A stretch of 64,000 bases of DNA from an uncultured Gammaproteobacteria bacterium. Its GTDB lineage: Bacteria > Patescibacteriota > Microgenomatia > Levybacterales > GWA1-39-11. The stretch covers positions 204,110-268,109 of the forward strand of contig CAYVKP010000001.1 in NCBI GenBank assembly GCA_964452165.1, given 5' to 3'. The notes below the pieces were generated by a model, which had not been told where the DNA came from, ran no database searches, and was given only the letters and a program-made list of their open reading frames with translations. The position numbers were made by a program, and so were the translations under genes. This document shows positions 18,550-33,959 of this stretch, one piece after another (position 1 is the first letter of the stretch; each line of letters starts with the position of its first letter).

Positions 18550-19383
18550 ATGAAGAATTTATTCAAAAATAATTTAATTCACGCTTTCATCGCTTTGGCA
18601 ATTGTTGGCGTCTTTGTTTTTGCGTCAAAATCCTTTGCACAATCCGCACCAAAAGTCATGATCTGCCACGGCACCGACTCGGTTACCAATCCTTATCAAA
18701 CTCCAAACGTTGACATTTCATCTGCAACAGCTGAAGGTCACGCTAGTCACACAGGACCAGTAGCAACAGATGCGGTAGTAGCGCAAGCATTAAAAGATGC
18801 GCACATTCAATGGGGAGATATTATTCCCCCGTTCCCTTTGAGTGGTGTAGTAGGTGGACTCAACTGGACACCGGATGGTATAGCAATTTGGAATAATGGT
18901 TGTAAGTATGTGACGCCTCCCGCTACTCACAAAGCATGTTCTGGCGGTGCATGTACGGTTGTTGCCGGTATAGGAACTGATAGTTGTACTACAAATGCTA
19001 ATTGTCTGCCTAATCCTACTCACAAAGAATGTCAGAGAAATGCTTGCGTAGTCGTAAACGGTGCAGCAACTGATTCATGCAGCGTGGATGCTGATTGTGC
19101 CGCACCAACACCAACTCCAACACCAACTCCTACAAATACACCTAACAACCCAGGCAATCCCGGTGGACCTGGAGACGGAAAATCTGATGGACGTTCAAGT
19201 TGCCCAGAATGTACTCAGGCTCCAAAACAAGGACAGGTACTTGGTGCATCAACATTTGCAGGAACCGGTACTTTTGATTCAACTCTTGCAACAGCAGAAC
19301 AAGCCGCGGGAATCCTCCTCTCAGCAGGCGCAGTAGCGTATGCCCAAATCAAAACTAAAAAAAAGAGCAAAGCAAGCAAATAA
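18550..19383 (+). CDS. Secreted Cys-repeat protein with C-terminal sorting signal (QVLGAST...TG, hydrophobic segment, Lys-rich tail)
   Basis: Signal peptide MKNLF..AIVGVFVFASKSFAQS. Two HK[AE]C..AC.VV.G..TDSC...C repeats. C-terminus QVLGASTFAGTGTF..AAGILLSAGAVAYAQIKTKKKSKASK. Confidence 0.55.
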   Translation: MKNLFKNNLIHAFIALAIVGVFVFASKSFAQSAPKVMICHGTDSVTNPYQTPNVDISSATAEGHASHTGPVATDAVVAQALKDAHIQWGDIIPPFPLSGVVGGLNWTPDGIAIWNNGCKYVTPPATHKACSGGACTVVAGIGTDSCTTNANCLPNPTHKECQRNACVVVNGAATDSCSVDADCAAPTPTPTPTPTNTPNNPGNPGGPGDGKSDGRSSCPECTQAPKQGQVLGASTFAGTGTFDSTLATAEQAAGILLSAGAVAYAQIKTKKKSKASK

Positions 19384-19912
19384 GCACCCCTTTGTAGAAA
19401 AATTAATCGCTCTTGGAATCCTACTTTTTCTACTAGGTACCATCACGCACCTGCAAATTTTCACAAACGCCCTGATTAGCCAAAGGGAACAGCCTAAAAA
19501 GGTTTACGTGGCACAGGATCCGTCATCTATTTCAATTCCGTCGGTAAGAATTAACGTGAAGGTTGATGAAGGGGGTATAGCTTCGGGTAATTGGATTCTA
19601 TCTTCCGATAAAGCTCTATACTTACCCACAAGTGGAAAAATTGGGGAAGGCTACAATACCATAATCTACGCACACGACACCAATAATCTTTTTGGGCCTC
19701 TTCTTTGGGTAAAAAAGGGCGATTTAATTCTTCTTACTGACAGAAAAGGAAAGGAATTTAAGTATAAAATTTTCTCAACAGAAGAGGTTGACCCCAAAGA
19801 TCTGAGCAAGCTATATTCCACAGAGAAAAACATAGTCACGCTATTTACATGCGACGGGTGGTTTGATGAGAAAAGACTATTAGTAAAAGCAAAGCTACTT
19901 CAGAAAAGCTAA
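19340..19912 (+). CDS. Sortase-family transpeptidase
   Basis: N-terminal TM, conserved His (IIYAHDTNNLFGPL), TLxTC active-site Cys (VTLFTCDGW) and Arg (KRLLVKAKL). Overlaps the 3' end of its putative substrate gene. Confidence 0.75.
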   Translation: MPKSKLKKRAKQANKHPFVEKLIALGILLFLLGTITHLQIFTNALISQREQPKKVYVAQDPSSISIPSVRINVKVDEGGIASGNWILSSDKALYLPTSGKIGEGYNTIIYAHDTNNLFGPLLWVKKGDLILLTDRKGKEFKYKIFSTEEVDPKDLSKLYSTEKNIVTLFTCDGWFDEKRLLVKAKLLQKS

Positions 19913-19985
19913 CCCACAAAGATTCACCTATAGTATTGACATTGGGCTTTCAAATTGCTATAATCCCTAATCTTATATTAATTAG

Positions 19986-21662
19986 ATGAGCGAATACCCA
20001 CCTTATAGAAAAGTCGTTGTTGAGAAAGAACCAATTCTTGGTAAAAGAGACAGGATCCTATATACGTTTCTTTTTATAACAACCTTGATATCAATTCTCT
20101 GGTATTTTTTATGGTGGATTAATCTTGCACATATTCCCCACAATTTTCTGCATGGGTTTCATGTATTTGACCTTTTGCTTTTCGGATTACTCATATACGT
20201 TGTGTTCATTGGATATCTTTCAAGTTTCGTTACGTGGTTCTCCTTTCTCTTTGCCTCAAAGCCCAAAAAATCTTTTGCTCCAACCCAAAGTTTAAGAGTT
20301 GCTTTCTTAACGTGTTACGTTCCTGGCAAAGAACCAATAAAAATGCTTGCGAAAACTCTCGAGGCCATTAAAGCTGTGCGTTACCCTCACGATACATGGG
20401 TGCTTGATGAGGGTGATTCGGAGGAAGTAAAAAAATTATGCCGCAAACTTGGCGTAAATCATTTCACAAGGAAAGGAAGTAGAAGATTTAATATTGGAGT
20501 CTTTAGGAAAAAGACAAAAGCGGGAAATCATAATGCTTGGAGACATCATCACGAAGACAAGTACGATATAGTTGCTCAGGTTGATATGGACCACATTCCT
20601 AGACCGAATTTTCTTGAGAAAACGTTAGGATATTTTCGTGATCCAAGTGTTGCAATGGTTGGAACACCTGAAGTTTATAAAAAAACTAAAAACTGGGTAA
20701 TGAGCGGCTCTTCAGAGCAATCTGCAATTTTCCATTTCGCTATGCAAACCGGATATTATGGATGCGATATGCCACTTTTAATCGGTACAAGCCACCTCTA
20801 TAGAGTCTCTGCACTAAGGGAAATTGGAGGATATGTGCCAACAATTGTTGAAGATCATCTTACAGGAATGAAATTGTATTCGCACGGATATAAAGGAGTC
20901 TTTGTTCCTAAAATTTTAGCTCAAGGATACGGACCACTTAACTGGGTTGATTATTTTAATCAACAGTTTAGGTGGAGTTATGGATTATTTGAAATTCTTT
21001 TCTTTTACACTCCAAAACTTTTCCTGAAGCTTAAATGGAAGCAGAAAATAAATTACCTTATTGCGCAAACTTATTATTTCACAGGACCTGCTGTGGTTTT
21101 TGGAGCAATAATTACAGCATTATATCTTTGGACAGGAATAAGTCCTGTTAATATGCGTGTTGTTGATTGGATTTACCATGCTTTACCACCCTACATGGCA
21201 AGTCAAATAATTTTCAACTTCATAAGGCTTCATAGCATAAGGCCGGGCCGCATTCCTCTTTTTGGAATCAAGGGAAAAATACTAAATTTTGGCGCGAACA
21301 TTGTATATTCCCTCGCATTCATTGCTCTTATTTTGAGAAAAAAGTTTACTTACGCAGTTACAACAAAGGATGCAGCAAGACAACCGTCTGCAGTACCTCT
21401 ATCAACTTTTAGTTTACATTTCGCGATTTTGGTCGCATGCGCGGCAGGTCTTGTTGCAAGCATATATTTACACCACGCCGCCTCGTTGCAGAGAATATGG
21501 GGTACATTTACTGTTTTATCTATGGCCGGAGTTATTATTTCAAATTATTCCTTAAAAATCCGAGCATATATTAGAAAAGTGAAAAAGACATTATTCGCTA
21601 ACCAATTAGGAGCAAAACTTGCATATTCATACTTGCAAAACGCATTTAGAGAACTCCTATAA
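19986..21662 (+). CDS. Processive family-2 glycosyltransferase (cellulose/chitin-synthase-like), multi-TM
   Basis: D,D motifs (VLDEGDSEE; QVDMDHIP), TED-like VEDH, and QQFRWSYG (QxxRW). Multiple TM helices on both sides of the catalytic domain. Confidence 0.75.
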   Translation: MSEYPPYRKVVVEKEPILGKRDRILYTFLFITTLISILWYFLWWINLAHIPHNFLHGFHVFDLLLFGLLIYVVFIGYLSSFVTWFSFLFASKPKKSFAPTQSLRVAFLTCYVPGKEPIKMLAKTLEAIKAVRYPHDTWVLDEGDSEEVKKLCRKLGVNHFTRKGSRRFNIGVFRKKTKAGNHNAWRHHHEDKYDIVAQVDMDHIPRPNFLEKTLGYFRDPSVAMVGTPEVYKKTKNWVMSGSSEQSAIFHFAMQTGYYGCDMPLLIGTSHLYRVSALREIGGYVPTIVEDHLTGMKLYSHGYKGVFVPKILAQGYGPLNWVDYFNQQFRWSYGLFEILFFYTPKLFLKLKWKQKINYLIAQTYYFTGPAVVFGAIITALYLWTGISPVNMRVVDWIYHALPPYMASQIIFNFIRLHSIRPGRIPLFGIKGKILNFGANIVYSLAFIALILRKKFTYAVTTKDAARQPSAVPLSTFSLHFAILVACAAGLVASIYLHHAASLQRIWGTFTVLSMAGVIISNYSLKIRAYIRKVKKTLFANQLGAKLAYSYLQNAFRELL

Positions 21663-21775
21663 AAGTTTAAAACTCTCTACCGCTGTGGTGTCATTTTATT
21701 TAAAAAATGACTGATTGTAATCACCCAGTTAAAGTGATATTATCCCCCTAAGTACTTAGGTACGAATTCATTATT

Positions 21776-24700
21776 ATGCATAAGCTTAGGCGGGCTGCTC
21801 AAAAATTCCTAGTCTTTATAGCTTTTTTTGCCATGCTGGTTCAGTCTTTGAACCCGTTCTTGTACGTCTTACCTCAAGTAGCATATGCGCAAGAAGCAAC
21901 CGTTACACCAACCGATACTCCAAGTGATACACCAACGGTCACGCCAGACCAGAACCAGACAGTAACTCCGACCCCAACTCCAGCAGACTCAGTTACACCA
22001 ACTGACACCCCAACTCCAGCAGAAACCGTTACGCCAACTCCTGTTGGGGGAGATACTTCGACAGTTACACCAGACCAGACTCAACCCAACAACAATAGCC
22101 CGCCAAGTGGCCAGAGTGTTTCGGGTCAAAATAGTTCAAACAGCTCAAATAGCAACTCTCCAACTTCATCTATAACTCCCACGATAACGGTTGCTCCAAC
22201 TGTAACTCCAGCTCCTGATAAGGGGGAGGGCGGAAAAATAGGCGTAGCGGTTCTTAAAGATGTATCAGCCCCAAGCATTGATTTACAAGCAACAAATACG
22301 GATAGTTCCGCGACTTTGACAACAGACAAATCCGACTATGCACCAACAGATACAGCCTTAATTACCGGGTCTAATTTTTCTCCCAACAAGACTTATTCAT
22401 TAACTGTTAGTTCAAATGATGCTCCTGCAACCAGCACGACTGCTAACGTTACTACAAATGATAGCGGGTCATTCGTTTACGCCTATCAATTAGACGGAAA
22501 GTACAGACCAAACTATAAGGTCGAGGTTAAAGACGCTTCTGGAACAGTAGTTGCCTCAACAACATTTACAGATAGTGCAAGTGTAACAACCACAGTTAGT
22601 GGTGTTGCCTGTGTAGGTGACCAACCGGGGCAAAACGGTTTAGTATGTACTGCAAACGATATTAATCTTGCCTCTGTCTCACCCACCGTTACAATAAATG
22701 GGCATGGATGTAGATTCCCCGGAGATACAGTTAACTTTACGGCAAACTATCAAATTCAATCCAATGCAAACAATAGATACAACGCAGGAGTTTGGTTTGC
22801 AACAAATGGGCAGGCAAGTGCCTTGCATGGAACGTGTTCAGCAACTTCACTTCCAAGCACACCCAACCCTCCCTTTTTTGATGGTGGGACTTCATGTGGA
22901 GGTATTAATAAACCTGACATTGGAACAATTACTATCACTCAGACAGCAGTATGTAATCCCGACAGTAGTGGATTTCTCACGATTCCATACTGTACAACAT
23001 GGCAACAAAACTCAAATAACGCATGTACCACACCTACTGATACTGTACCCGGAACAGGCTCAAAATGTAATTGTCCAGCAGGTGGAATTGAAATCCCAAT
23101 AACTGTTCCTCCAGCAATAGAAGTTATAAAGTCTCTTTCACCATCAAATGACTCGGGACTATTTAATTTATTAGTTAATGCTATTACTAAAAAAACAGAC
23201 GCCACAAATGGTGGAACAACAGGAAAAGTTGGAGTAACAACCGGACAAAATACTTTTGGAGAAGCAAACGGAACAGGTACAAACTTAAGTAATTATGCTT
23301 CTGTTGCTTCATGTGTTTTAAGAGGAACTTCAACAACAGTAGCAATAACCGGAACTGGCCCAACTTGGACAATCACCAATGTAACTAACGGACAGGATAT
23401 AGTCTGTACGATTACCAATACTGCAAACAACGGAACAATCGAGCTTAAAAAAGTATGGTCCGGAACGGGAGGACAAACAACACTCACAATCGGATCAGCA
23501 ATCGGAGGCAATAACGTTGCCAACACACAGACAGGAGCAATCGGATCAGCACCTTTAACAACGGGTCCAAAAACGGTAAATAGCGGTAGTTATTATTTAA
23601 ATGAAACCGGAGGATTAACAAACTACACACCGTCTGCTCTTACTTGTTTCAATGATGCGAATAACGATGGAACAAATAATAACGGGGAGTCATCTGTTAG
23701 TGTCGGCGCAAGTAATGCGGTAGCAGTAAGCGCGAATCAACACGTCATTTGTTCTTTCACAAACACACGTGATCAGGGGACAATCGAGCTTAAAAAAGTA
23801 TGGTCCGGAACGGGAGGACAAACAACATTAAATATTGGAACATCAGCTGGAGGGACACAAACCGCAAGTGTTCAGACAGGAGCAAGCGGAGCAGCACCGC
23901 TCACAACCGGGACACAAACCGTTGATACCAATACTTACTATATTTCAGAAAATGGCGGATTAACGGATTACTCATCAGTTCTTGCTTGTACGGATAATGG
24001 AAGTACAGTAACACCGGGTGCAAATAACTCACTCAATGTTGCAAAGAATCATGCGGTTATTTGTACATTTACTAACACAAGAAATACCGGAACAATCAAA
24101 GTAATAAAAGACGTAGTGGCACCTAATGGGTCCCCAATTACCGATACTTCAACAAACTTTGCATTTTCGGTCGACGGCGGTTCTACGTTTGATTTAACTG
24201 ACGGAGGAAACCATTCAACAACTGTCATAACAGGAGCAAATCATACGGTTGTTGAAACGCCTAACGCAAATTACGACTTCGCAGGTTGTACAAGTGATTC
24301 CCAGACTCAGGGATCGGCCGTTGCTAACGGAATTGTTGTAACAGTTACAACTGGTACAACTTCAACTGTTACCTGTACTAACAAACAAAAGCATGCAAAG
24401 ATTACGGTCGTTAAAGTTGTCAAAGACGCAAGCGGAAAAGTAGTAAGTGATAGTAAAACATTTACAGTTCAATTAAATGGAGCAAGTGACGACTCTACGC
24501 TTTCCGATACTCATGATGTAGTCTACAATCCAAATCCTGGAACTTATACGGTAAGCGAAGCAAATGACGCAAATTACGATAATTTAGGATGTAAATTGAA
24601 TGCCGATCTTACTGCGACCAACTTTAGCTTGGCATCGAATCAATCTGTGACCGTTACATGTACCAATAAACAAAAACCTGGTTCAATTCTGGGAGTAAAA

Positions 24701-26581
24701 ACGGATGAAAACAACAATCTTCTACCAAATTGGACAATACAACTTGCTTCGTGTCTTGCAGGATTTACAAATTGTGTCGATGTTCTAGGAGCGGCAATCC
24801 CAACCGACAACAACGGAGCATATTTGTTCAGCAATTTAGTTACAGGATTTTACCAGGTGTACGAAATTATGCAGGCGGGTTGGACAAACGTTACCGCTCT
24901 TTTTCACAATGTTGAAATTCAGCCGGGAACAGTAAGTTCAAACAATAACTTCCAGAATAAAGGAAATCTGAGAATTACGGCTTGTAAATACGAGGATGCT
25001 GATGCTAATAATCAGACAACAGAAGATAGAACGCCGGTCAATAATTGGAGTTTTACACTCAGCGGTGAGCAACTCGGAGAAAATGTTACTCAGTCAGCAG
25101 GAGAAGAAAGCAATTGTACAACCTTTACGGATCTTAAACCCGGAGCCTATCAGGTTGATGAAAAATTGGCCAGTCACACGGACTGGTCTGTAGTAGACAA
25201 GAATGGAGATGTTCAGGACGTCACCCTTACAAATGAATCCACAACGGTTAATTTCTACAACTACCGAAAAGCTCATATTATTGTCAAGAAAGACGTAGTG
25301 AATCCTGATGGGGGCGTAGTTACTGATACAAGTACAAATTTTGACTTCAGAATTCACCAAGGCGGAGACATAGTTGAATCTTTCTCTTTGGTTGATGGCG
25401 CAACGAGTTCTACTTACGATGTTAATCCAGGCACTTACGATGTTAACGAAGTTCTAAACCATAGTAATTACTCGTTTGGTTCCTGTACTGCGGTTTATGA
25501 CGGTGAATCAATCGGCCGTCCTGTTACAGAAGAAGACGAATCAGGTGAGCAGGTAAGTCTTGATTCAAATGACACAGTGACGGTTACATGTATTAACAAG
25601 CAGAAAACGGGCAGGGTCCATGGATACAAATGGAACGATGAAAACGGGGACGGAAAACTAACTTGTACTGAAGGTGGCGAATTCCCAACATGTGAATCAA
25701 AACTATCTGATTGGACCATCTTTGTTGATTCAAATAACAATAAAACCCTCGATGAAGGAGAGCAATCGACTACAACCGACTCAAGTGGGAATTACTCTTT
25801 TACCCTTAATCCTGGGACCTACAATATTTGCGAAGTAGTAAAAACAGGTTGGGAGCAAACTTATCCGGGCTCAGGGGAAACTGCCTGTCACACCGTTACG
25901 ATAAGTTCAAATCAAAACTCTGAGCAAAGTCTTAACTTCGGAAATAAAAATGTGATTCCGGCATTCACAATTGCTAAAACCAATGACACAGAAGGAGCGA
26001 GCAAAGCACCGGGAGACGTAGTTAACTACACCCTGACATTAACGCTCGACGATACAAAGGGTCCCGGAGACAACATAACTGTTACCGACCTTCTTCCAAA
26101 GGGCTTTGTTTACAATGGAGGCTCATACCAAGCATTTCTCAATGGGAACCCAATATCAGTTGAAGAACCAACCTACCATTCACCGGGAACATGGACTCTT
26201 CCAAGCGCACAGCCGGGTGATGTATTTACATTAAAATACAAAGCAACTGTTGATAGCGGACAGCAATCAGGTACATATTATGACAATGCATGGGGACAAG
26301 GTACGCCTGTAGGAGATCCTTCAAGTACGATTCTTGCGCTCGCGGGTACAGATGGAAATATTGGTGATCCAAATTTTGTAGGAACACAAGTAAGCGTTTC
26401 AAAAGAAGATTCCCAATCGCCGTCTATTGCTAAAACCCAGGGCCAAGTTTTAGGTGCATCAACCGAGGCTCTGCCTTCAACAGGTGCAAACACATTTCAA
26501 ACAGCTCTGGGAATCATCGTACTTATTATAGGATTGAACTTATTACTTGTAGGCTTTATAATTCGCAAACGCTATGTTTAA
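21776..26581 (+). CDS. Giant (1601 aa) cell-surface adhesin-like protein with DUF11/Cna-B/SdrD-B-type repeats and C-terminal sortase signal
   Basis: Signal peptide. Pro/Thr-rich linker. Tandem repeats around GTIELKKVWSGTGGQTTL. SdrD-B-like segment KWNDENGDGKL...SDWTIFVDSNNNKTLDEGE. DUF11-like GDVVNYTLTLTL..GTYYDNAWG. C-terminus QVLGASTEALPSTGANTF, then a TM, then RKRYV. Confidence 0.8.
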   Translation: MHKLRRAAQKFLVFIAFFAMLVQSLNPFLYVLPQVAYAQEATVTPTDTPSDTPTVTPDQNQTVTPTPTPADSVTPTDTPTPAETVTPTPVGGDTSTVTPDQTQPNNNSPPSGQSVSGQNSSNSSNSNSPTSSITPTITVAPTVTPAPDKGEGGKIGVAVLKDVSAPSIDLQATNTDSSATLTTDKSDYAPTDTALITGSNFSPNKTYSLTVSSNDAPATSTTANVTTNDSGSFVYAYQLDGKYRPNYKVEVKDASGTVVASTTFTDSASVTTTVSGVACVGDQPGQNGLVCTANDINLASVSPTVTINGHGCRFPGDTVNFTANYQIQSNANNRYNAGVWFATNGQASALHGTCSATSLPSTPNPPFFDGGTSCGGINKPDIGTITITQTAVCNPDSSGFLTIPYCTTWQQNSNNACTTPTDTVPGTGSKCNCPAGGIEIPITVPPAIEVIKSLSPSNDSGLFNLLVNAITKKTDATNGGTTGKVGVTTGQNTFGEANGTGTNLSNYASVASCVLRGTSTTVAITGTGPTWTITNVTNGQDIVCTITNTANNGTIELKKVWSGTGGQTTLTIGSAIGGNNVANTQTGAIGSAPLTTGPKTVNSGSYYLNETGGLTNYTPSALTCFNDANNDGTNNNGESSVSVGASNAVAVSANQHVICSFTNTRDQGTIELKKVWSGTGGQTTLNIGTSAGGTQTASVQTGASGAAPLTTGTQTVDTNTYYISENGGLTDYSSVLACTDNGSTVTPGANNSLNVAKNHAVICTFTNTRNTGTIKVIKDVVAPNGSPITDTSTNFAFSVDGGSTFDLTDGGNHSTTVITGANHTVVETPNANYDFAGCTSDSQTQGSAVANGIVVTVTTGTTSTVTCTNKQKHAKITVVKVVKDASGKVVSDSKTFTVQLNGASDDSTLSDTHDVVYNPNPGTYTVSEANDANYDNLGCKLNADLTATNFSLASNQSVTVTCTNKQKPGSILGVKTDENNNLLPNWTIQLASCLAGFTNCVDVLGAAIPTDNNGAYLFSNLVTGFYQVYEIMQAGWTNVTALFHNVEIQPGTVSSNNNFQNKGNLRITACKYEDADANNQTTEDRTPVNNWSFTLSGEQLGENVTQSAGEESNCTTFTDLKPGAYQVDEKLASHTDWSVVDKNGDVQDVTLTNESTTVNFYNYRKAHIIVKKDVVNPDGGVVTDTSTNFDFRIHQGGDIVESFSLVDGATSSTYDVNPGTYDVNEVLNHSNYSFGSCTAVYDGESIGRPVTEEDESGEQVSLDSNDTVTVTCINKQKTGRVHGYKWNDENGDGKLTCTEGGEFPTCESKLSDWTIFVDSNNNKTLDEGEQSTTTDSSGNYSFTLNPGTYNICEVVKTGWEQTYPGSGETACHTVTISSNQNSEQSLNFGNKNVIPAFTIAKTNDTEGASKAPGDVVNYTLTLTLDDTKGPGDNITVTDLLPKGFVYNGGSYQAFLNGNPISVEEPTYHSPGTWTLPSAQPGDVFTLKYKATVDSGQQSGTYYDNAWGQGTPVGDPSSTILALAGTDGNIGDPNFVGTQVSVSKEDSQSPSIAKTQGQVLGASTEALPSTGANTFQTALGIIVLIIGLNLLLVGFIIRKRYV
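23431..24120 (+). repeat. Intragenic tandem domain repeats (about 345-bp period) within the adhesin gene
   Basis: Near-identical DNA acaatcgagcttaaaaaagtatggtccggaacgggaggacaaacaaca at about 23440 and about 23785. A third, diverged unit lies near 24080. Confidence 0.5.
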
Positions 26582-27596
26582 GATATTATTTAGATCATTT
26601 ATAGGTTTTGCCGCCGTGCTTATCTTAGCAAGCCTTGTCTCGCCTTTGGCGGATCAGGTTTTTGCTAACTCAGCAGTATCAATAAGACTTGAGCAGCCAA
26701 AGACTCCCACCAACCAAAATTCCCTTAATATTACATTTGTAACACTCGATACACAGAGTGAGGCAATTACCGTCAAATGCTTCAAAAAAGGCCCAACTGA
26801 TGGCGCTTTTAGCCAGTTTGGGGCAGACATAAATCTTGCGGCGGGCGGAAATACCGGAACCTGCGATGCCAATTCGTCCGTAATAAACACTCCGGGTTCA
26901 TATCAATTTTATGCAACAGCAACGGCAGCCTCAGGCAATGGCACAAGTTCAACAGTAAATGTTGATTACAACAATTCCGGGCCAGGTACTCCCACAAATT
27001 TCAGCAAGGACAGAATTACCTCTTGCTCGTACAAAATTAAATTTAGAACGGCAGATGATAGCGGAAAAACAATCAAAGTAAGAATATACCGTGCCGACGC
27101 AACTGCTTCGGATCCATCTTCAACGTCTGAAGTAGGAGCTGTTAATATTGGCTCGAGTACCGATGGAGAATTCACAAATACGATTCCTGACTGTAGTAAA
27201 TCATACTACTATGCGGTAAGGGCTTTTGATTCTGCAGGAAATGCGTCGGGGGTCGTAGGAGATTCTATAAATATAGGAAGTACTACTACGACCACAACCA
27301 CAACAACGGGCACAACGGGTGCAAGCCCAACCGCAGGCACTGGTGCAATTCCAGTTGGTGCAGGACAGGGATCGGTTCCGGGCGAGCAAACAAATCAAAA
27401 TGAAAATGGTACAAAACAAGAAGTACTTGGTGCATCAACACCAAGTGGCAAGACAGGAGAAATGGAAAAGAAGAACAATGCAACTGTGGGTAGCGCCTTT
27501 TCCTCAAAAAAACTTTTTGCAGGAGCAATCGCCATAATAGTAGTGATCGCAGGAGTTGCCTATATCCTCTACAGAAGAGGCAAGAAAACCATATAA
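26574..27596 (+). CDS. FN3/Ig-like surface protein with Thr-rich stalk and C-terminal sorting signal (EVLGAST...KTG, TM, RRGKK)
   Basis: Signal peptide, beta-rich domains, a run of Thr, and C-terminus EVLGASTPSGKTGEME...AGAIAIIVVIAGVAYILYRRGKKTI. Overlaps the adhesin gene's end by 8 nt. Confidence 0.6.
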   Translation: MFKILFRSFIGFAAVLILASLVSPLADQVFANSAVSIRLEQPKTPTNQNSLNITFVTLDTQSEAITVKCFKKGPTDGAFSQFGADINLAAGGNTGTCDANSSVINTPGSYQFYATATAASGNGTSSTVNVDYNNSGPGTPTNFSKDRITSCSYKIKFRTADDSGKTIKVRIYRADATASDPSSTSEVGAVNIGSSTDGEFTNTIPDCSKSYYYAVRAFDSAGNASGVVGDSINIGSTTTTTTTTTGTTGASPTAGTGAIPVGAGQGSVPGEQTNQNENGTKQEVLGASTPSGKTGEMEKKNNATVGSAFSSKKLFAGAIAIIVVIAGVAYILYRRGKKTI

Positions 27597-28217
27597 TTGT
27601 CTTTAGTGAAAAGACTTTCTTCTCTTTTAATTTACGCAGGCGGCGCACTTGTAATTCTATCTCTTATATTTCTAATCGTAGTTTTTGCCCCAATTATAAA
27701 ACTTGAACTTTCGTATTTTTTCCAAGGTCCTGGAAAAGAAAAAGTTGTTTTAGAAAATAAAACAAGAGCAGAAAATGTGCTTGTTCCTGTTGATCCCGAA
27801 TTCGGAATCGTGATTCCCAAAATTCGAGCAAATGCAAAAATAATACCAAATGTAAATCCGTATTCTGAGCCGGAGTACCAGAGAGCTTTAGCACGCGGTG
27901 TCGCTCAGGCACGCGGTACCGGTGTGCCGGGAGAGGGTAAAAACATTTTCCTTTTTTCTCACTCATCTGTCGACTTTCTTGAAGCTTCACGTTACAACTC
28001 TATTTTTTATTTGCTCAATAAGATGGAAAAAGGAGATGAGATAGACCTTTTTTATAAGGGGCGCGAATATAAGTATAAAGTAACTGACAAAAAAATAGTT
28101 GATCCTAAAAATGTTGCATACTTAAGTCCAAACTCTAACCAGGAAAAATTGACCTTGATGACTTGCTGGCCTCCCGGCACAAATCTACAAAGACTCATTA
28201 TAACAGCCCGGCAATAA
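27597..28217 (+). CDS. Sortase-family transpeptidase
   Basis: TM anchor, His (IFLFSHSS), Cys (KLTLMTCWPPGT) and Arg (RLIITAR). Lies immediately after two putative substrates. Confidence 0.75.
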   Translation: MSLVKRLSSLLIYAGGALVILSLIFLIVVFAPIIKLELSYFFQGPGKEKVVLENKTRAENVLVPVDPEFGIVIPKIRANAKIIPNVNPYSEPEYQRALARGVAQARGTGVPGEGKNIFLFSHSSVDFLEASRYNSIFYLLNKMEKGDEIDLFYKGREYKYKVTDKKIVDPKNVAYLSPNSNQEKLTLMTCWPPGTNLQRLIITARQ

Positions 28218-28290
28218 GGCCTCTTTTGATACAGAAACGCCATATTTACAAGATACCTTTAAAGTGTTAAATTTTAATATCTTTAGGCAG

Positions 28291-29745
28291 ATGAAAACTT
28301 TAAAGCCCTTAATAGGCTTGTTATTATTCTTCTTTTTTTCATTTTTTCTCGTTGTTAATTTAGTTTTTGTTCCTGTTGCTTATGCTGCAAAAACTACTCC
28401 GACGTCAACAACTGTCACCTGGAAAGGAAACGGAACAACAGGTGGTTTTTGTTCTTCATTTGAAAATGACCCTGATTTAAATCCCGCGTCAGGAAAACAA
28501 GGCTGGTTGTTTATATTAACCTCACCTTATACGAGTGGTCCATATAATCTAACCTATTCTTTTAGTGATGGAACGAATAATATTAATACTCCTCCGGTTG
28601 TTCAAAAAATTGTAGGGTCGGTTCATATTATTGTTTACACAGCCATCGACGCGAAATTATTGAGTGCATCAGTTACAAACGGCACTTCAAACAGTATTCT
28701 GACTGTTTCTCATTGTGAAAAAGCGATTCGACCCCTGCAAGTTTCAAAAACAGCAAATACAACTTTCACCCGAACGTGGACATGGGGTATCGATAAGTCT
28801 GCAGATCAATCAGATCTTGGTGCATTGCAGCCAAACGATGTTAAAACCGTTAACTACATTGCTACGGTAAGCGCGGGTTCGCAAGATAGCGATTGGGTTG
28901 TAAACGGAACAATAACTGTAACAAACCCTGCGGGTAATCCAAACGCGACAATAGCAAGCGTAACAGACGTTCTGAGTAGTTTTGGTAGCGTGTCGGGTGT
29001 AAATTGCGGAGTAATCTTCCCGTATATTCTTAGCGCTGGGAGTGTTCTTAATTGTACTTACACTCAAGTACTAGGTGGGGCAGTGAATCAAACAAATACA
29101 GCAACGGTTGTGACGACCGGATTAGTGCCGGGAGGTTCGTCAAGTGCTGTGCCCGTAGCATTTGATAGCCCTACAACCGAAACCGACGAGTGCGTAACCG
29201 TAAACGATACAAATTCAAAGGGTCCTCAGGGAGTAGTAGTTTGTTCGGCGGATTCCCCTAAGACTTTTAACTACAGTACTACATTTAGCAAAGATGGTGC
29301 ATCAGACGTGAAACTTGTTTGTGGAAGCAATACTTACAACAACACTGCGTCTTTTGTAACAAATGACACTTCAACGGCTGGAAGTGACAGTTGGACGGTT
29401 ACTGCAAATGTACAATGCAATACTTTTTGGTGCTCGCCAGGATACTGGGGTAGCGCGGCCAAATTTGATATTTACAGCTACATAAATGCACACAAAGTTG
29501 TAACTCCTCCTGCGAGTATTGCCGGAGCGGATTTATACAGCTCTATTACCGGTATTGTTCCAGCAGCTCTGAAGGCCGGTAGTCCTTCGAATCCAAGCCT
29601 TGGGGATGTACTCGGGAGTCCTTCTACTTACGGTGGACCGGCGAATAACTCAATTTCTGATTACTTCGCTTACCTTCTCGGCTGGGGTGGAACCCAGGCA
29701 ACAGGTGATAACTGCCCAATAAACACATTCGGAAATCCCAACTAA
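28291..29745 (+). CDS. Secreted beta-rich protein, hypothetical (no sorting signal)
   Basis: Signal peptide MKTLKPLIGLLLFFFFSFFLVVNLVFVPVAYAA. Thr/Asn/Ser-rich beta domains and several Cys pairs. Confidence 0.45.
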   Translation: MKTLKPLIGLLLFFFFSFFLVVNLVFVPVAYAAKTTPTSTTVTWKGNGTTGGFCSSFENDPDLNPASGKQGWLFILTSPYTSGPYNLTYSFSDGTNNINTPPVVQKIVGSVHIIVYTAIDAKLLSASVTNGTSNSILTVSHCEKAIRPLQVSKTANTTFTRTWTWGIDKSADQSDLGALQPNDVKTVNYIATVSAGSQDSDWVVNGTITVTNPAGNPNATIASVTDVLSSFGSVSGVNCGVIFPYILSAGSVLNCTYTQVLGGAVNQTNTATVVTTGLVPGGSSSAVPVAFDSPTTETDECVTVNDTNSKGPQGVVVCSADSPKTFNYSTTFSKDGASDVKLVCGSNTYNNTASFVTNDTSTAGSDSWTVTANVQCNTFWCSPGYWGSAAKFDIYSYINAHKVVTPPASIAGADLYSSITGIVPAALKAGSPSNPSLGDVLGSPSTYGGPANNSISDYFAYLLGWGGTQATGDNCPINTFGNPN

Positions 29746-29819
29746 GGGATTCATTGGGCCTCTTTCAGATCTTATTTTCCGTGAATTTTGTTAATTAAAG
29801 TGGGGGGAGGTGAATAAAT

Positions 29820-30101
29820 ATGAATAAAATTAAAAAAATAGCATTTGCAGGAGCAGCTTCTGCAATCATGCTTTCGAGTTTTGTAAGTGTAGCATTTGCG
29901 GTAACTCCAGGAGCTGCAGTAAAAAATCCAAATGCTAATTCAAACGCGTGTTGGGGTATGGATCGTTCTTTCTATGCGAGCCAAGGCTTTTTCCCTGAGA
30001 ATATGGACATTAAGCAGTCTTTTCCAGGTGATGTCGGTGAAGAACGTGCAGCTTGGGTTGCAACGTATTGTAGTTCACACGGGCCAGTCGTAGTAGAGTA
30101 G
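29820..30101 (+). CDS. Small secreted protein, hypothetical
   Basis: Strong RBS GGGGGGAGGTG. Signal peptide ends AFAVTP. Confidence 0.4.
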   Translation: MNKIKKIAFAGAASAIMLSSFVSVAFAVTPGAAVKNPNANSNACWGMDRSFYASQGFFPENMDIKQSFPGDVGEERAAWVATYCSSHGPVVVE

Positions 30102-30199
30102 AAAATAGAAGATTTGTTTTAAACAGCCCAAAGGGGTAATTCCCTGCGGGTTGTTTTGGTTGACAAATTTACAAAGGAGCTATATGATTCTATCTGTTA

Positions 30200-30961
30200 A
30201 TGAAAAAGTTTCTTGGAGTGATACTCGGATTTTTCCTCGTCCTCACAATTGTTTTTGCAGTCTCAGCGCAAAGTTCAAACGCAAATATTCCTGATCGCGA
30301 CGGTGATTTTCCGGATCCTGACCACCCCGGAATTCGCGTTCGCGTATTTGTGCACAATCCAAAAGATGCACGAGGATCATCAGACCTTACGCCCGCTACT
30401 TGTTCCCCAGATAATGACTCTGCAACCGTAGATGGTGTTACAGGGTGGAAACTTCCTTCAACAAATTGGAATTACAGAGTAAATAGCGCAAGTGCTCCAT
30501 CTGGAGTCGGAGGAAATGCCGTTACGATTACAAATAATGCTTTCGCAGCTTGGACAGGCGCTTTATCTCCCGCTTCAAGCAAGCCGACATTTTCATACGC
30601 AGGACCAACGTCTGTCAATAAAAACGTTTACGACGGACAGAACATAGTTGCTTGGGGACACACATCAGGTAGCGCTCTGGCCGTAACTTACACAAGATAC
30701 AATCAATCAACCGGGGTTGTTGTTGACGTTGACACAATTTTTAATAGCAAGTTTGCGTGGACATGGAATACATGCTCGGCAAGTGCTTATGATGCCCAGG
30801 ATATCTTGACGCACGAACTAGGACACTGGATGGGACTGGACGACAACTACGCGGCAAGTTTTGCGGATAACACAATGTATGGTTACGGGGCAAAAGCCGA
30901 GAACAAAAAGGACACTCCTGCAACAGGCGATAAAAACGCCCTCCTCACAATTTATCATTAA
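30200..30961 (+). CDS. Secreted metzincin-like zinc metallopeptidase with HEXXHXXGXXD motif (snapalysin/M7-like)
   Basis: Signal peptide. HELGHWMGLDD zinc-binding motif with Asp as the third ligand. Downstream Met-turn-like NTMYGY. Confidence 0.6.
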   Translation: MKKFLGVILGFFLVLTIVFAVSAQSSNANIPDRDGDFPDPDHPGIRVRVFVHNPKDARGSSDLTPATCSPDNDSATVDGVTGWKLPSTNWNYRVNSASAPSGVGGNAVTITNNAFAAWTGALSPASSKPTFSYAGPTSVNKNVYDGQNIVAWGHTSGSALAVTYTRYNQSTGVVVDVDTIFNSKFAWTWNTCSASAYDAQDILTHELGHWMGLDDNYAASFADNTMYGYGAKAENKKDTPATGDKNALLTIYH

Positions 30962-31958: not shown

Positions 31959-32156
31959 TTATCGGGAAACGTCCCAGTCTGGGTTGTTTCCACCAGCAAT
32001 ACGCCCATGTTTATGGGAAATCTTGCAGGCTGAGCAGAGCGTTATTGTCTCTCCGTAGATCTCTGAGCACTCCTTACACACGTTAGTTGTCTTGTTCCCG
32101 CAGAATGTGCAGAAGTACACACGCGGAATCAATCCGAAGAGTGGCATCAGGTTCAC
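31959..32156 (-). CDS. Island ORF 5, small zinc-ribbon protein (three CxxC pairs)
   Basis: CTFCGN..CKEC..CSAC. Confidence 0.4.
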   Translation of the reverse strand: MNLMPLFGLIPRVYFCTFCGNKTTNVCKECSEIYGETITLCSACKISHKHGRIAGGNNPDWDVSR

Positions 32157-32183
32157 TTCCTGTCTGGTGAAGGCGCGCCTTCG

Positions 32184-32729
32184 TTACTCAGTGGCTGTGT
32201 TGCCCTGGTAGACGTTGTAGTGCTCGGTGGCCTTGATAAACTTATCACCGGCAGACGGACCTTGCGGGCACCTGTGCACAATGATGAGCTGGCCGCTCTT
32301 GTGACAATCCCGTGCATCCCGGCGAGTCAAACTTGTACTCCAGGTGCAGTGGATTGCGTCACAGTCACACTCCTTCTCGACCTCCTGCGAGAGGAAATCG
32401 TTAATCAGCGCTGTGCTGATGAAGCCTCCACCGTCGTCCTCGATGAGTCGCCAGAATTCTCTGCAAGCATCATCGTGGTCGAAACAGTAACCGAAGTAGA
32501 AGAGTACTTCAACATTCGCGTCGGCTGGACTAGTTTCGTATTTGATTTCGGCCTCATCGAGCATTGCTCGAATTCCTTCAGCCGAAACTTGGTTCGCCGT
32601 AAGTCTGAGGCAGTTGTAAGTGCCCATGGGTATTTCCGAAGCATCGTGACAGAGGAAGCATTTCATTTCCCCGTCCCATATGTACTCCGGATACACCAGT
32701 AGTTCGCCCTCTGCGAATCTTCGTGCCAT
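32184..32729 (-). CDS. Island ORF 4, Cys/His-rich protein, hypothetical
   Basis: CFLCH, CFDHDDAC, ECDCDAIHC, DCH, HRC clusters suggest metal binding. Confidence 0.4.
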   Translation of the reverse strand: MARRFAEGELLVYPEYIWDGEMKCFLCHDASEIPMGTYNCLRLTANQVSAEGIRAMLDEAEIKYETSPADANVEVLFYFGYCFDHDDACREFWRLIEDDGGGFISTALINDFLSQEVEKECDCDAIHCTWSTSLTRRDARDCHKSGQLIIVHRCPQGPSAGDKFIKATEHYNVYQGNTATE

Positions 32730-32777
32730 CGTGGCTACTCCTCCCTATGAAGGCGCGCTGGCCCCCGTTACCTGCCG

Positions 32778-33320
32778 TTACTTGACGCTGAAGAACGCCC
32801 AGAGGATGTCTCCGAAGCGATGCGCGCATCTAACGTTAATGCACTCACCAGGTGACATCTTCGCGGCGATGTCTGCGTCCGTCGAGATCTGGTAGAAGAG
32901 CTTGTACTCGCCGGGTTTGACGGGTACCTTGAGTGGAATCGTAATGTTGCCCTTTCCACCTGGCTTAAGCGCCGGGACAGACACAGAGGCGTCCGAGATC
33001 TGCTTGAGATCTGGTTTACTTCCGTCAGTCGCGGCCGATTCGCCATAGACGCGGACGAGCTTGTAGTCGCCGGTCCAGGTTGTTGTGCCGCAATTGGTCA
33101 CTTCCCAGACTTTGTCTTGGGTTGATCCCGCTGCCAGCGTCTGCCACTTGTCGGGAGTGTCCTCGATGGTGACATCCCTGACGAACTTCATGCAGTCCTC
33201 GAGCTTGGCGGTCGCAGAGGATGTTGGTTTGTCTTTGGGACTGTACCATGCAGCCCACGCAACAACAACTCCCAAGATACATAGAAGCAGGAGAGTTACG
33301 ACAGTCTGCTGCCTGATCAT
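32778..33320 (-). CDS. Island ORF 3, membrane-anchored Ig/CARDB-like beta-sandwich protein
   Basis: N-terminal signal anchor VVTLLLLCILGVVVAWAAW. Segment VWEVTNCGTTTW...SVPALKPGGKGNITIPLKVPVKPGEYKLFYQI resembles CARDB/NBR1-like folds. Confidence 0.4.
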   Translation of the reverse strand: MIRQQTVVTLLLLCILGVVVAWAAWYSPKDKPTSSATAKLEDCMKFVRDVTIEDTPDKWQTLAAGSTQDKVWEVTNCGTTTWTGDYKLVRVYGESAATDGSKPDLKQISDASVSVPALKPGGKGNITIPLKVPVKPGEYKLFYQISTDADIAAKMSPGECINVRCAHRFGDILWAFFSVK

Positions 33321-33362
33321 CTTGTTGCTCCTTTCGAGCAGACTCGTGAGACCCGCGTCTCG

Positions 33363-33947
33363 TTACCCTCCGAATAGCACGGTGGCGGAGAAGAGGTCTC
33401 CACGCTGGAGAACTCTTCTGGATATTGCCTGTACATCTTCGCCGTTGAGGCGGCAGTTGCCCAGGCCGAACTCAAGTCCGAGTTCCTTAGTAAGATGCTT
33501 GACCAGTTCGTTGACGGTTTTGCCTGCGTAGGGCACCATCAAGGGGTCAAACGGTTGATCGCCGATGTCAAGTGTGACCACGATGTCGTTGGGGCCGGTA
33601 GACCGCAATATGGTCACTTCTTTTCTCAAATCGGCGACGGCTTGCTCGCGCTCTTCAGGCGAAAGGTTGTTCGCGGGTTTGCGCTCAACGCTCATATTGA
33701 AGTACGGCAGCACTTCACCGAGCTCCTCATTACCAGGGACGTCCTCGCCTCGCGAGGTGAAAGTCATGGTTCCAGCCAGACGCACAGAGTAGGCACCACC
33801 GCGGACAATCATGTCCTCGGTTACTTCTAGGGTGTCTCCGGCTTCTGGAATCTTGTCAACCCGCAGGACGGCGCTGTATATGTTGGCGCCTATTGCGATG
33901 TAGACAGGTTTCTTTTCAGGTTGATGACGTTTTCCGAACAGTTTCAC
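33363..33947 (-). CDS. Island ORF 2, protein with C-terminal ThiS/MoaD-like ubiquitin-fold domain ending in Gly-Gly (possible tandem beta-grasp)
   Basis: C-terminus ...CRLNGEDVQAISRRVLQRGDLFSATVLFGG followed directly by a stop. The pattern N-x-E-x-V...L..GD.....GG matches ThiS/MoaD. An N-terminal segment also ends ...GDTLEV..MIVRGG. Confidence 0.45.
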   Translation of the reverse strand: MKLFGKRHQPEKKPVYIAIGANIYSAVLRVDKIPEAGDTLEVTEDMIVRGGAYSVRLAGTMTFTSRGEDVPGNEELGEVLPYFNMSVERKPANNLSPEEREQAVADLRKEVTILRSTGPNDIVVTLDIGDQPFDPLMVPYAGKTVNELVKHLTKELGLEFGLGNCRLNGEDVQAISRRVLQRGDLFSATVLFGG

Positions 33948-33959
33948 TTCCGACCTCCG

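What the first reader, a model, noticed from the sequence alone, without database searches (positions are those of the whole stretch)
18550..28217. Two sortase-substrate modules sharing a non-canonical sorting signal with a conserved (Q)VLGAST box
Three secreted proteins end in the same tripartite signal: 18550-19383 has QVLGASTFAGTG.., 21776-26581 has QVLGASTEALPSTG.., and 26574-27596 has EVLGASTPSGKTG... In each, a VLGAST hexapeptide is followed within 4-7 residues by a Thr-Gly, then a hydrophobic segment, then a Lys/Arg tail. Each substrate lies immediately upstream of a sortase gene (19340-19912; 27597-28217). Both sortases carry TLxTC(x)PPG-type active sites. Only the giant adhesin carries a canonical LPSTG. 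The shared VLGAST box is not a classic LPXTG, NPQTN or LAXTG motif. This points to a lineage-specific sorting signal recognised by these dedicated sortases.
Basis: seen in the sequence. Interest (0 to 1): 0.75.

Follow-up and report, generated by a model that had tools for sequence, protein, structure and literature searches.

The report
Conserved VLG box beside sortase signals
In this ultra-small (Patescibacteria/CPR) bacterium and its relatives, surface proteins encoded beside sortase genes carry a nearly invariant Val-Leu-Gly box just before the usual sortase cleavage motif, an undescribed lineage-specific extension of a well-known anchoring signal.

Summary
VLGAST occurs three times in the window, only in the C-terminal tails of three secreted proteins beside two genuine sortases (expected by chance: 0.0035).

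Related loci change the interpretation. The box does not replace LPXTG. It is a conserved upstream extension of sortase signals.
- In 63 of 65 relatives of the giant adhesin, [VL]LG-x-x-x lies 0-4 residues (usually 1) before a canonical LPxTG.
- In relatives of the first small protein, the box directly abuts an LAxTG-like pentapeptide ([LMFVY][AG]xTG). The window's FAGTG is therefore a real sortase-type motif.
- The third protein (340 aa) belongs to a conserved family with two FN3-like domains. Its disordered stalk keeps one or two VLG boxes but has no conserved pentapeptide. Its "KTG" is incidental.

The order adhesin, FN3 protein, sortase holds in all 68 analysable related loci. In 29 of them adhesin and FN3 protein form one reading frame with an internal LPxTG signal.

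In 80 related loci, 85 of 87 box-bearing, membrane-tailed ORFs lie within 1.3 kb upstream of a sortase gene. Codons vary freely, so selection acts on the peptide. No Pfam or NCBIfam model matched at threshold, and no paper found mentions the box.

How the box works is inferred, not shown. Only one sortase has the PPG active site.

The parts
18550..19383 (+). P1: small secreted Cys-rich protein (277 aa from the ATG; an alternative TTG start lies at 18514). It is the substrate of the first sortase. Its tail reads GQ-VLGAST-FAGTG-11 aa-weak TM-KTKKKSKASK.
   Evidence: Homologous tails upstream of the same sortase clade are VLGASTMAGTG, VLGASTFAGTG, VLGVSTLASTG and similar.
19237..19269 (+). VLGAST box (19237-19254) directly followed by the LAxTG-like pentapeptide FAGTG (19255-19269).
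   Evidence: In relatives the spacing between box and pentapeptide is 0.
19340..19912 (+). Sortase 1 (190 aa). It has an N-terminal TM and the active site TLFTCDGW, and it overlaps the end of P1 by 44 nt.
   Evidence: PF04203 at 72.5 bits. It is below every NCBIfam class cut-off. The nearest solved structure is a class A sortase, E 1.7e-10. H112, C171 and R179 are invariant in the clade.
19986..21662 (+). GT2 / cellulose-synthase-like membrane glycosyltransferase lying between the two modules. It is context, not a conserved part of either module.
   Evidence: It has no homologue in the 80 related loci.
21776..26581 (+). Giant adhesin (1601 aa): signal peptide, PT-rich region, repeated Ig-like (SpaA / SdrD_B type) domains and a C-terminal sorting signal.
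   Evidence: PF17802 and PF17210 hits. The tail is shown. The family tail consensus is G[EQ]VLGAS[TI]-x-LP[AS]TGAN-TM-RRKY.
26447..26581 (+). Adhesin sorting signal: VLGAST (26447-26464), EA spacer, LPSTG (26471-26485), ANTFQT, 20-residue TM (26504-26563), RKRYV and stop.
   Evidence: A box 0-4 residues before LPxTG is found in 36 of 36 split relatives and 27 of 29 fused relatives.
26574..27596 (+). P5: conserved 340-aa membrane protein. It has a signal peptide, two FN3-like beta-sandwich domains each with an invariant Cys pair, a disordered stalk, a C-terminal TM helix and a basic tail. It overlaps the adhesin stop by 8 nt (ATGTTTAA).
   Evidence: AF2 model: residues 35-230 have pLDDT above 90, residues 235-307 below 50, helix 311-338. 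Fold matches are tandem FN3 domains. The family is 42-67% identical to P5 and unannotated. The module is present upstream of the sortase in 68 related loci.
27342..27440 (+). P5 stalk motifs: GAIPV (27342-27356), a degenerate box 1 reading GSVPGEQT (about 27369-27392), and box 2 reading EVLGAST (27420-27440). The following PSGKTG is not a conserved pentapeptide.
   Evidence: Column conservation in 63 relatives: A258 98%, G270 87%, L285 78%, G286 97%, T289 71%. 60 of 64 relatives have at least one [VI]LG box 7-72 residues before the TM. TG occurs in 15 of 64.
27597..28217 (+). Sortase 2 (206 aa). It has an N-terminal TM helix and the active site TLMTCWPPG, and it abuts the P5 stop codon.
   Evidence: PF04203 at 83.7 bits. 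The best NCBIfam class is C, at 74 bits against a cut-off of 160. The AF2 model has pLDDT 83.6 and its best fold matches are class C pilus sortases, with classes A, D and E close behind. More than 2000 homologues were found; those carrying a source name, and the related genome loci, are Patescibacteria.

Best explanation
The region holds two sortase modules typical of Patescibacteria.
- Module 1 is a small secreted protein followed by its own sortase.
- Module 2 is a three-gene cassette: a giant Ig-repeat adhesin, a conserved membrane protein with two FN3-like domains (P5), and a second, class-C-like sortase.

The Val-Leu-Gly box (consensus G-[EQ]-V-L-G-A-S-T) is a short linear motif in a disordered, membrane-proximal segment. 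It forms the conserved N-terminal half of an extended sorting signal.

The sortases most likely still cleave at the pentapeptide that follows the box: LPxT|G in the adhesin and [LMF]AxT|G in the small protein. The box most likely acts as an additional docking or positioning element read by the sortase, or by a partner located at the same height above the membrane.

P5 carries the box without a pentapeptide. It is therefore probably not cleaved. It would stay in the membrane by its C-terminal helix and be held next to the sortase and the adhesin.

Shown: the motif, its conservation, its fixed spacing to the pentapeptide, its linkage to sortase genes, and the cassette with its in-frame fusions.
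Inferred: that the sortase is what reads the box, where cleavage occurs, and what P5 does.
For: - Chance is excluded: 3 copies seen against 0.0035 expected.
- In 80 genome loci found through sortase 2, 36 of 36 C-terminal LPxTG adhesin tails carry [VL]LG[AIVT][SAT][TI] 0-4 residues upstream, with a spacing of 1 in 30. In 27 of 29 fused ORFs the internal LPxTG signal has the same box.
- V, L and G are as invariant as LPxTG itself.
- In 80 metagenome loci found through sortase 1, 37 of 52 unique upstream tails have a strict [VI]LG box ahead of the anchor. Most of the rest have near variants such as TLG, VLS, VMG or VLA. The box is followed at once by [LMFVY][AG]xTG or L[SPA]xT(x)G.
- The tight, clade-specific spacing argues that box and pentapeptide are read as one unit.
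- The box is about 39-fold enriched in the C-terminal 110 residues of membrane-tailed ORFs. 85 of 87 such ORFs sit within 1.3 kb upstream of a sortase gene.
- All synonymous codon families are used across 44 loci, including both Ser and both Leu families, so selection is on the peptide.
- The box lies in low-complexity or disordered sequence. The P5 stalk has pLDDT below 50. In relatives of P1 the box is preceded by poly-Gly or PT tracts. It is therefore a linear motif and not part of a fold.
- Boxes are sometimes duplicated in tandem, for example VLGASTSQVLGASTSLPGTG and EVLGAVLGASTELPATG.
- Both sortases have intact catalytic residues.
Against: - No experiment or structural model links the box to the sortase. 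The association is by gene neighbourhood and spacing only.
- P5 keeps the box at a variable distance from its TM (7-72 residues) and has no pentapeptide. The box can therefore function without a cleavage motif, which fits a reader other than the sortase active site equally well.
- Spacing between box and LPxTG is not absolutely fixed. 15 of 65 adhesins differ from the mode.
- Loss of the box in the adhesin (L033, L077) or in P5 (L016, L028, L034, L044) is not mirrored in the partner protein. There is therefore no co-variation supporting a single common reader.
- Whole genomes were not surveyed. Sorting-signal proteins far from sortase genes were not sampled.
Confidence: 0.5

Rival explanations
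1. The box is unrelated to sortase recognition. It is a juxta-anchor motif that acts after or independently of sorting. Possible roles are a contact site for a cell-envelope component (wall polymer or S-layer), an O-glycosylation sequon centred on the conserved Ser/Thr, or a shedding-protease site. It would then be common to Patescibacteria surface proteins, which simply tend to be encoded near sortases.
For: - P5 has the box without any pentapeptide and at variable distance from the membrane.
- The box is shared by substrates of two sortase clades that are only distantly related, E about 1e-7.
- The trailing Thr is conserved: 71% in P5 box 2 and 31 of 36 in adhesins.
- There is no co-variation between box loss in the adhesin and in P5.
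Against: - The nearly fixed 0-1 residue spacing to the pentapeptide in both clades is hard to explain if the two elements are read separately.
- 85 of 87 box-bearing tails are directly upstream of a sortase gene.
- No candidate alternative reader is conserved in the loci. The glycosyltransferase at 19986-21662 is not conserved.
Confidence: 0.25
2. VLGAST (more generally [VI]LGxxT) is itself the motif that these dedicated sortases recognise and cleave. It would be a non-canonical sorting motif, and the downstream TG motifs would be secondary.
For: - The protein most constantly paired with sortase 2 is P5. It is directly upstream in 68 loci, and it carries only the box.
- LGAST loosely resembles LPATG.
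Against: - A canonical LPxTG at the normal distance from the TM follows the box in 63 of 65 adhesins.
- An LAxTG-type pentapeptide follows it in the P1 family.
- These pentapeptides would not be conserved if they were not used.
- Every characterised sortase motif has Thr (or Ala/Ser) at position 4, followed by a small residue. [VI]LGxxT does not fit this pattern (established knowledge of sortase classes A-F).
- In P5 the box lies up to 72 residues from the TM.
Confidence: 0.1
3. P5 is the covalent acceptor, acting like a basal pilin. Sortase 2 would join the adhesin's LPxT to an amine of P5. This would give a two-component fibre held in the membrane by the P5 helix. The boxes would bring donor and acceptor to the same enzyme.
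For: - The strict gene order adhesin, P5, sortase holds in 68 loci. In 29 loci there are in-frame adhesin-P5 fusions, which implies 1:1 co-production.
- Sortase 2 is closest in sequence and fold to pilus-type class C sortases.
- The adhesin has SpaA-type domains.
Against: - No Lys is invariant in P5 across 63 relatives. The best are K168 at 79%, K145 at 76% and K43 at 70%.
- P5 has an FN3-like fold, not a CnaA/CnaB pilin fold.
- P5 has no LPXTG and no recognisable pilin motif or E-box.
- In fused precursors sortase cleavage would separate the two parts, and nothing requires them to be rejoined.
Confidence: 0.12
4. The repeat is a chance or low-complexity coincidence, or a DNA-level repeat from gene conversion within the window.
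For: Two of the three copies share identical codons over the six residues.
Against: - 0.0035 copies are expected and 3 are found.
- The box is conserved in roughly 150 tails from different genomes, with free synonymous variation.
Confidence: 0.01

Closest known systems
Classical LPXTG cell-wall sorting signal processed by sortase (Staphylococcus aureus SrtA paradigm; Pfam PF00746, TIGR01167)
   Same: - The adhesin ends in LPSTG, a 20-residue hydrophobic segment and a basic tail.
- A genuine sortase with His-Cys-Arg is encoded two genes downstream.
   Different: - A nearly invariant G-[EQ]-VLGAST box sits 1 residue upstream of LPxTG.
- This box is not a feature of textbook Gram-positive signals such as protein A, M protein or ClfA (from my own knowledge, not tested here).
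- The tail scores below the PF00746 cut-off (16.2 against 20 bits) and gives no TIGR01167 hit.
Class C (pilus-assembly) sortase operons of Gram-positive bacteria (SpaA-, FimA- and RrgB-type pili)
   Same: - The cluster has a large adhesin with SpaA / CnaB-type domains, a smaller Ig-like protein and a dedicated sortase.
- Sortase 2 has its best sequence and fold matches to class C sortases.
   Different: - The score is far below the class C cut-off (74 against 160 bits).
- The small protein (P5) has no LPXTG, no invariant Lys, and an FN3-like rather than a pilin fold.
- No major pilin with a pilin motif was found.
Class E sortases with LAXTG substrates (Streptomyces, Corynebacterium)
   Same: The family of the first small protein carries [LMFVY][AG]xTG, that is, Ala in place of Pro at position 2.
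   Different: - Sortase 1 scores 15.8 bits against the class E cut-off of 160.
- Its nearest solved structure is a class A enzyme.
- The pentapeptide is fused to a VLGAST box.
Dedicated sortase-target gene pairs (for example class GN 'marine' sortase TIGR03784 with its adjacent single target)
   Same: - There is a one-to-one adjacency of a sortase gene with its presumed substrate, often overlapping it.
- This is conserved across many genomes.
   Different: - The sortase clades differ: 22.8 and 33.3 bits against a cut-off of 158.
- The phylum, the motif and the target proteins are all different.
Lineage-specific tripartite C-terminal signals (PEP-CTERM/exosortase, GlyGly-CTERM/rhombosortase, PGF-CTERM/archaeosortase)
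   Same: A short signature motif, a TM helix and a basic tail, restricted to a lineage and genomically linked to the processing enzyme.
   Different: - The enzyme here is a sortase (PF04203), not an exosortase-type membrane protease.
- The signature is not flush with the TM helix.

Membership tests
Sortase (Pfam PF04203, MEROPS C60) | Match to the sortase domain model above the gathering score | tested here: met
   72.5 bits (19340-19912) and 83.7 bits (27597-28217) against a cut-off of 26.6. The AF2 model of sortase 2 matches solved sortases at E about 1e-11.
Sortase (Pfam PF04203, MEROPS C60) | Catalytic His, Cys (TLxTC) and Arg, plus an N-terminal membrane anchor | tested here: met
   H122, C190 and R199 are invariant in the sortase 2 clade. 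H112, C171 and R179 are invariant in the sortase 1 clade. An N-terminal hydrophobic helix is present.
Class C (pilus) sortase, NCBIfam NF033745 | Score at or above the curated class cut-off of 160 bits | tested here: not met
   Sortase 2 scores 74.1 bits and sortase 1 scores 46.2 bits.
Class C (pilus) sortase | Neighbouring pilin substrates with LPXTG plus a pilin-motif Lys | tested here: not met
   P5 lacks LPXTG and has no invariant Lys. Its fold is FN3-like.
Class E sortase, NCBIfam NF033747 | Score at or above the curated cut-off of 160 bits | tested here: not met
   15.8 bits (sortase 1) and 29.2 bits (sortase 2).
Class E sortase | Substrates with an LAXTG pentapeptide | tested here: inconclusive
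   Relatives of P1 carry [LMFVY][AG]xTG, which resembles LAXTG. The enzyme itself does not classify as class E.
LPXTG cell-wall sorting signal (PF00746 / TIGR01167) | LPXTG pentapeptide, then a hydrophobic segment, then a basic tail at the C-terminus | tested here: met
   Adhesin: LPSTG, ANTFQT, a 20-residue TM and RKRYV. The model score is below the cut-off (16.2 against 20 bits).
LPXTG cell-wall sorting signal (PF00746 / TIGR01167) | The same tripartite signal in the 340-aa protein (26574-27596) | tested here: not met
   No pentapeptide is conserved in its family. TG occurs in 15 of 64 relatives. 24 largely polar or charged residues lie between the TG and the TM.
LPXTG cell-wall sorting signal | Actual cleavage between Thr and Gly, and linkage to peptidoglycan | not testable with these tools
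   This needs mass spectrometry of mature proteins.
Known C-terminal sorting domains in NCBIfam (PEP-CTERM, GlyGly-CTERM and similar) | Match to any curated C-terminal sorting-domain model | tested here: not met
   The three tail-bearing proteins match no NCBIfam family at E up to 0.1.

The most novel reading that the evidence does not exclude
Patescibacteria sortases read a two-part signal. The VLG box would be an autonomous docking motif (an exosite ligand), separable from the cleaved pentapeptide. P5 would use the box alone to stay bound, uncleaved, to the sortase as a scaffold or acceptor. In many lineages adhesin and P5 would be made as one polyprotein, which the sortase cuts at an internal LPxTG and signal peptidase cuts at the following signal-peptide-like segment. 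Sortase would then be acting as a polyprotein-processing enzyme, which has not been described.
Probability: 0.3. Interest if true: 0.75.

Novelty: new variant of a known kind. Interest (0 to 1): 0.55.

Why it matters
Sortases are reported as near-ubiquitous in Microgenomates and present in more than half of CPR genomes (PMC6744442). What they sort, and how, has not been examined. These bacteria are thought to live attached to other cells, so giant surface adhesins are central to their biology.

A box as conserved as LPXTG itself would have several consequences:
- It gives a simple sequence signature for finding the sortase-dependent surface proteome of Patescibacteria.
- It suggests that substrate recognition extends well beyond the pentapeptide. 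That matters for sortase enzymology and for sortase-based protein ligation.
- It exposes a conserved three-gene surface cassette.

The in-frame adhesin-P5 fusions with an internal sorting signal are an unusual precursor architecture. They can be tested directly in vitro.

Tried and rejected
- **Three-tail profile search.** Searching the word-indexed protein database with a profile of the three tails gave 28 candidates and one hit. The query was too short. The single hit, P0001, did show VLGATTEGQVLGASTDFAATG.
- **Adhesin-tail search.** phmmer of the 52-aa adhesin tail against 1.84 billion representatives gave only 7 hits. This says nothing about distribution.
- **Plasmid search.** tblastn of the tail against plasmids gave no match. 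It cannot serve as a control for Gram-positive signals.
- **A wrong intermediate conclusion, corrected.** I first concluded that 29 'fused' loci lack any LPxTG, which would have favoured the box being the true sorting motif. That was an artefact of inspecting only C-termini. All 29 carry an internal complete sorting signal.
- **Lys-acceptor idea for P5.** It is weakened because no Lys is invariant.
- **Pilin fold for P5.** Rejected. The fold is tandem FN3-like.
- **RNA genes.** Rfam and tRNA scans of the window found nothing.
- **Literature.** Searches for sortase with CPR, Patescibacteria or Microgenomates, for the motif strings, and for 'internal LPXTG' or 'extended sorting signal' found no description.
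- **Source organism.** The closest named relatives are Levybacteria.


Full report
**1. Observation**

Three + strand ORFs carry the hexapeptide VLGAST close to their C-termini:
- P1, 18550-19383, 277 aa.
- The giant adhesin, 21776-26581, 1601 aa.
- P5, 26574-27596, 340 aa.

The boxes lie 48, 44 and 57 residues from the C-termini, at nt 19237, 26447 and 27423. No other ORF in any frame of the window has VLGAS. From the residue composition of the window's long ORFs, 0.0035 copies are expected. The codons are not all identical.

Each box is followed by a TG dipeptide, a hydrophobic stretch and a basic tail.

ORFs 19340-19912 and 27597-28217 are true sortases. They score 72.5 and 83.7 bits on PF04203, and His, Cys and Arg are invariant in their clades.

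The finding is inaccurate in three details:
- Sortase 1 reads TLFTCDGW. Only sortase 2 reads TLMTCWPPG.
- The adhesin is separated from sortase 2 by P5.
- In P5, 24 mostly polar or charged residues separate the TG from the hydrophobic segment.

**2. Source organism and family sizes**

Sortase 2 has more than 2000 homologues. Those that carry a source name are from Patescibacteria such as Levybacteria and Collierbacteria, and the related genome loci are also Patescibacteria MAGs. P5 has 220 homologues. All are unannotated, and those aligned are 41-67% identical to P5. The window itself has no rRNA or tRNA genes.

**3. The sortase 2 cassette in relatives**

A scan of one genome per species with a sortase 2 alignment returned 80 loci with flanks of up to 10 kb.

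*The adhesin.* The ORF that ends about 0.9-1.0 kb upstream of the sortase is a giant protein.
- Its tail is almost always G-[EQ]-V-L-G-A-S-[TI]-x-L-P-[AS]-T-G-A-N, then a TM and RRKY.
- All 36 such LPxTG tails have a [VL]LG box 0-4 residues before LPxTG, with a spacing of 1 in 30.
- V (35 of 36), L (36 of 36) and G (36 of 36) are as constant as LPxTG itself.

*P5.* The ORF directly upstream of the sortase is a homologue of P5.
- Of 64 such tails, 60 carry one or two [VI]LG-x-x-[TAS] boxes, with consensus G-x-VLG-E-E-T.
- The boxes lie 7-72 residues (median 21) before the C-terminal TM.
- No pentapeptide is conserved. TG occurs in 15 of 64.
- The window's PSGKTG is therefore incidental.

**4. 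Fusions, and a correction**

In 29 loci the ORF directly upstream of the sortase is very long. I first scored these loci as lacking LPxTG. That was an artefact of looking only at C-termini.

All 29 long ORFs contain a complete internal sorting signal 350-385 residues before their end. The tools confirmed this directly on L043 4048-10017. The internal signal has these parts in order:
- a VLG box (27 of 29);
- LPxTG;
- a TM segment;
- basic residues;
- in frame, a signal-peptide-like segment with an AxA site;
- the P5 module.

The cassette adhesin (sorting signal), P5, sortase is therefore present in all 68 analysable loci. Adhesin and P5 are separate genes in 39 loci and one reading frame in 29. 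In the window they overlap by 8 nt.

The fused form is topologically coherent:
- stop-transfer at the sorting-signal TM;
- re-insertion at the signal-like segment;
- stop-transfer at the final TM.

It implies that sortase and signal peptidase would cut the precursor into the same two products as in the split loci. Internal initiation at the Met residues that start the signal-like segment is also possible.

**5. The sortase 1 module in relatives**

Within the 80 loci, five further sortase 1 homologues each have a small ORF (188-301 aa) just upstream or overlapping. Their tails contain VLGASTMAGTG, VLGATG, VLGLSAAAG, VLGLSATHG or VLGLATTG.

A metagenome scan with a sortase 1 clade alignment returned 80 more loci.
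- Of 52 unique upstream tails, 37 have a strict [VI]LG box ahead of the anchor.
- Most of the others have near variants: TLGAST, VLSAST, VMGLS, VLALAETSG.
- Three are probably not real genes.
- Close relatives of P1 read G-[EQ]-VLG-[AV]-S-T-[LMFVY]-[AG]-x-T-G.
- More distant relatives read VLG-L-[SPA]-x-T-(x)-G.

The window's FAGTG is thus a variant of an LAxTG-like pentapeptide that directly abuts the box.

**6. Specificity**

- In the 80 genome loci a loosely defined box occurs at 56 per 10,000 residues in the last 110 residues of membrane-tailed ORFs. Elsewhere the rate is 0.6-2.6 per 10,000 (odds ratio 39, p about 1e-92). The internal copies are the fused sorting signals.
- 85 of 87 box-bearing membrane-tailed ORFs lie within 1.3 kb upstream of a sortase gene.
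- Across 44 loci every position of VLGAST uses all synonymous codons, including both Leu and both Ser families. The constraint is therefore on the peptide.

**7. Nature of the components**

*P5.* The AF2 model has these parts:
- a signal peptide;
- two confident beta-sandwich domains, residues 35-230, pLDDT above 90;
- a disordered stalk, residues 235-307, pLDDT below 50, which holds GAIPV and the boxes;
- a TM helix, residues 311-338.

The ectodomain matches tandem FN3 domains, not pilin folds. Four Cys are invariant. No Lys is invariant across 63 relatives.

*Sortase 2.* It models well (pLDDT 83.6). It is nearest to class C pilus sortases in fold and sequence, with classes A, D and E close behind. 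It is far below the NCBIfam class cut-offs.

*Sortase 1.* It is nearest to a class A enzyme and also falls in no defined class.

*The adhesin.* It has SpaA and SdrD_B type Ig-like domains.

*The tails.* None of the three tail-bearing proteins matches any NCBIfam family at E up to 0.1. The adhesin tail is below the PF00746 cut-off.

**8. Interpretation**

The box is a short linear motif in disordered, membrane-proximal sequence. It is sometimes duplicated in tandem. It sits at a nearly fixed position immediately N-terminal to the clade-appropriate pentapeptide in the substrates of two different sortase clades.

The simplest reading is an extended sorting signal specific to Patescibacteria. The sortase would cleave at the pentapeptide, and the box would add recognition or positioning.

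P5 keeps the box without a pentapeptide. The box can therefore act on its own. Both readings remain open.

The view that VLGAST is itself the cleaved motif is unlikely, because the conventional pentapeptides next to it are so well conserved. A basal-pilin-like acceptor role for P5 is attractive because of the fusions and the class-C-like sortase. It lacks an invariant Lys.

**9. Comparison with what is known**

Méheust et al. 2019 (PMC6744442) report a sortase family in more than half of CPR genomes and near-ubiquitous in Microgenomates. I found no paper that mentions the motif strings, an internal LPXTG or an extended sorting signal. No curated model covers the tails.

The system works like sortase-mediated surface anchoring. 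It uses LPXTG-type and LAXTG-type pentapeptides and a pilus-operon-like gene layout. It differs in three ways:
- the invariant upstream box;
- the conserved FN3 partner that lacks a pentapeptide;
- the in-frame adhesin-partner precursors.

I classify it as a new variant of a known kind.

**10. Limits**

- Nothing here shows cleavage, binding or anchoring.
- Only neighbourhoods of up to 10 kb were examined, not whole genomes.
- The absence of the box from classical Gram-positive signals rests on my own knowledge of textbook sequences, not on a scan.

Noticed in passing
window 60925-61647 (+): A third sortase gene: 240 aa, PF04203 at 72.9 bits, active site IVTCTPPG. The ORF upstream of it (58678-60921, 747 aa, weak Baseplate_J-like hit) has no C-terminal sorting signal. 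It may be the housekeeping sortase, and its substrates are not in the window.
   Followed up: partly
L011, L012, L043 (4048-10017) and 26 other related loci: Adhesin and P5 are a single ORF. It has an internal VLG box, LPxTG, TM and basic signal, followed in frame by a signal-peptide-like segment with an AxA site. This looks like a polyprotein-like precursor that sortase and signal peptidase would have to cut.
   Followed up: yes
L022 9365-9946; L028 2690-3307: Sortase-like ORFs next to the true cassette in which the catalytic Cys is replaced (LMTTYPPG and LQASYPP). They may be pseudo-sortases.
   Followed up: no
window 19986-21662 (+): A GT2 / cellulose-synthase-like membrane glycosyltransferase lies between the two sortase modules. 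It has no counterpart in the 80 related loci, so it is probably unrelated to the modules.
   Followed up: partly
L066 1383-2904 and 3128-10624; L007 3993-5185 and 6809 onward; L048 1795-3552: The two kinds of sortase module (small protein plus sortase 1; adhesin-P5-sortase 2) are also neighbours in several other genomes. Their adjacency in the window is therefore recurrent.
   Followed up: partly
window 28264-30961 (+): Downstream of sortase 2 lie a 493-aa secreted protein without an anchor, a 93-aa secreted protein, and a matrixin-like zinc metalloprotease (HELGH). The 493-aa protein has no counterpart in the related loci; the other two were not compared.
   Followed up: no
window 32000-34000: A GC-rich stretch (0.54 against about 0.40) with overlapping ORFs on both strands. 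32778-33320 (-) has an Ig-like N_BRCA1_IG domain. No RNA gene was detected.
   Followed up: no
L023 1519-2358; L075 2046-3212: These are the only two box-bearing, membrane-tailed ORFs not directly upstream of a sortase. They are homologous to each other (ILGESTS / VLGDSTDS ... WLYFRHRRD).
   Followed up: no
window 26574-27596, residues 257-261 (nt 27342-27356): A second conserved stalk motif, GAIPV (Ala 98%, Ile 89% in 63 relatives), lies upstream of the VLG boxes in the P5 family. Its role is unknown.
   Followed up: partly
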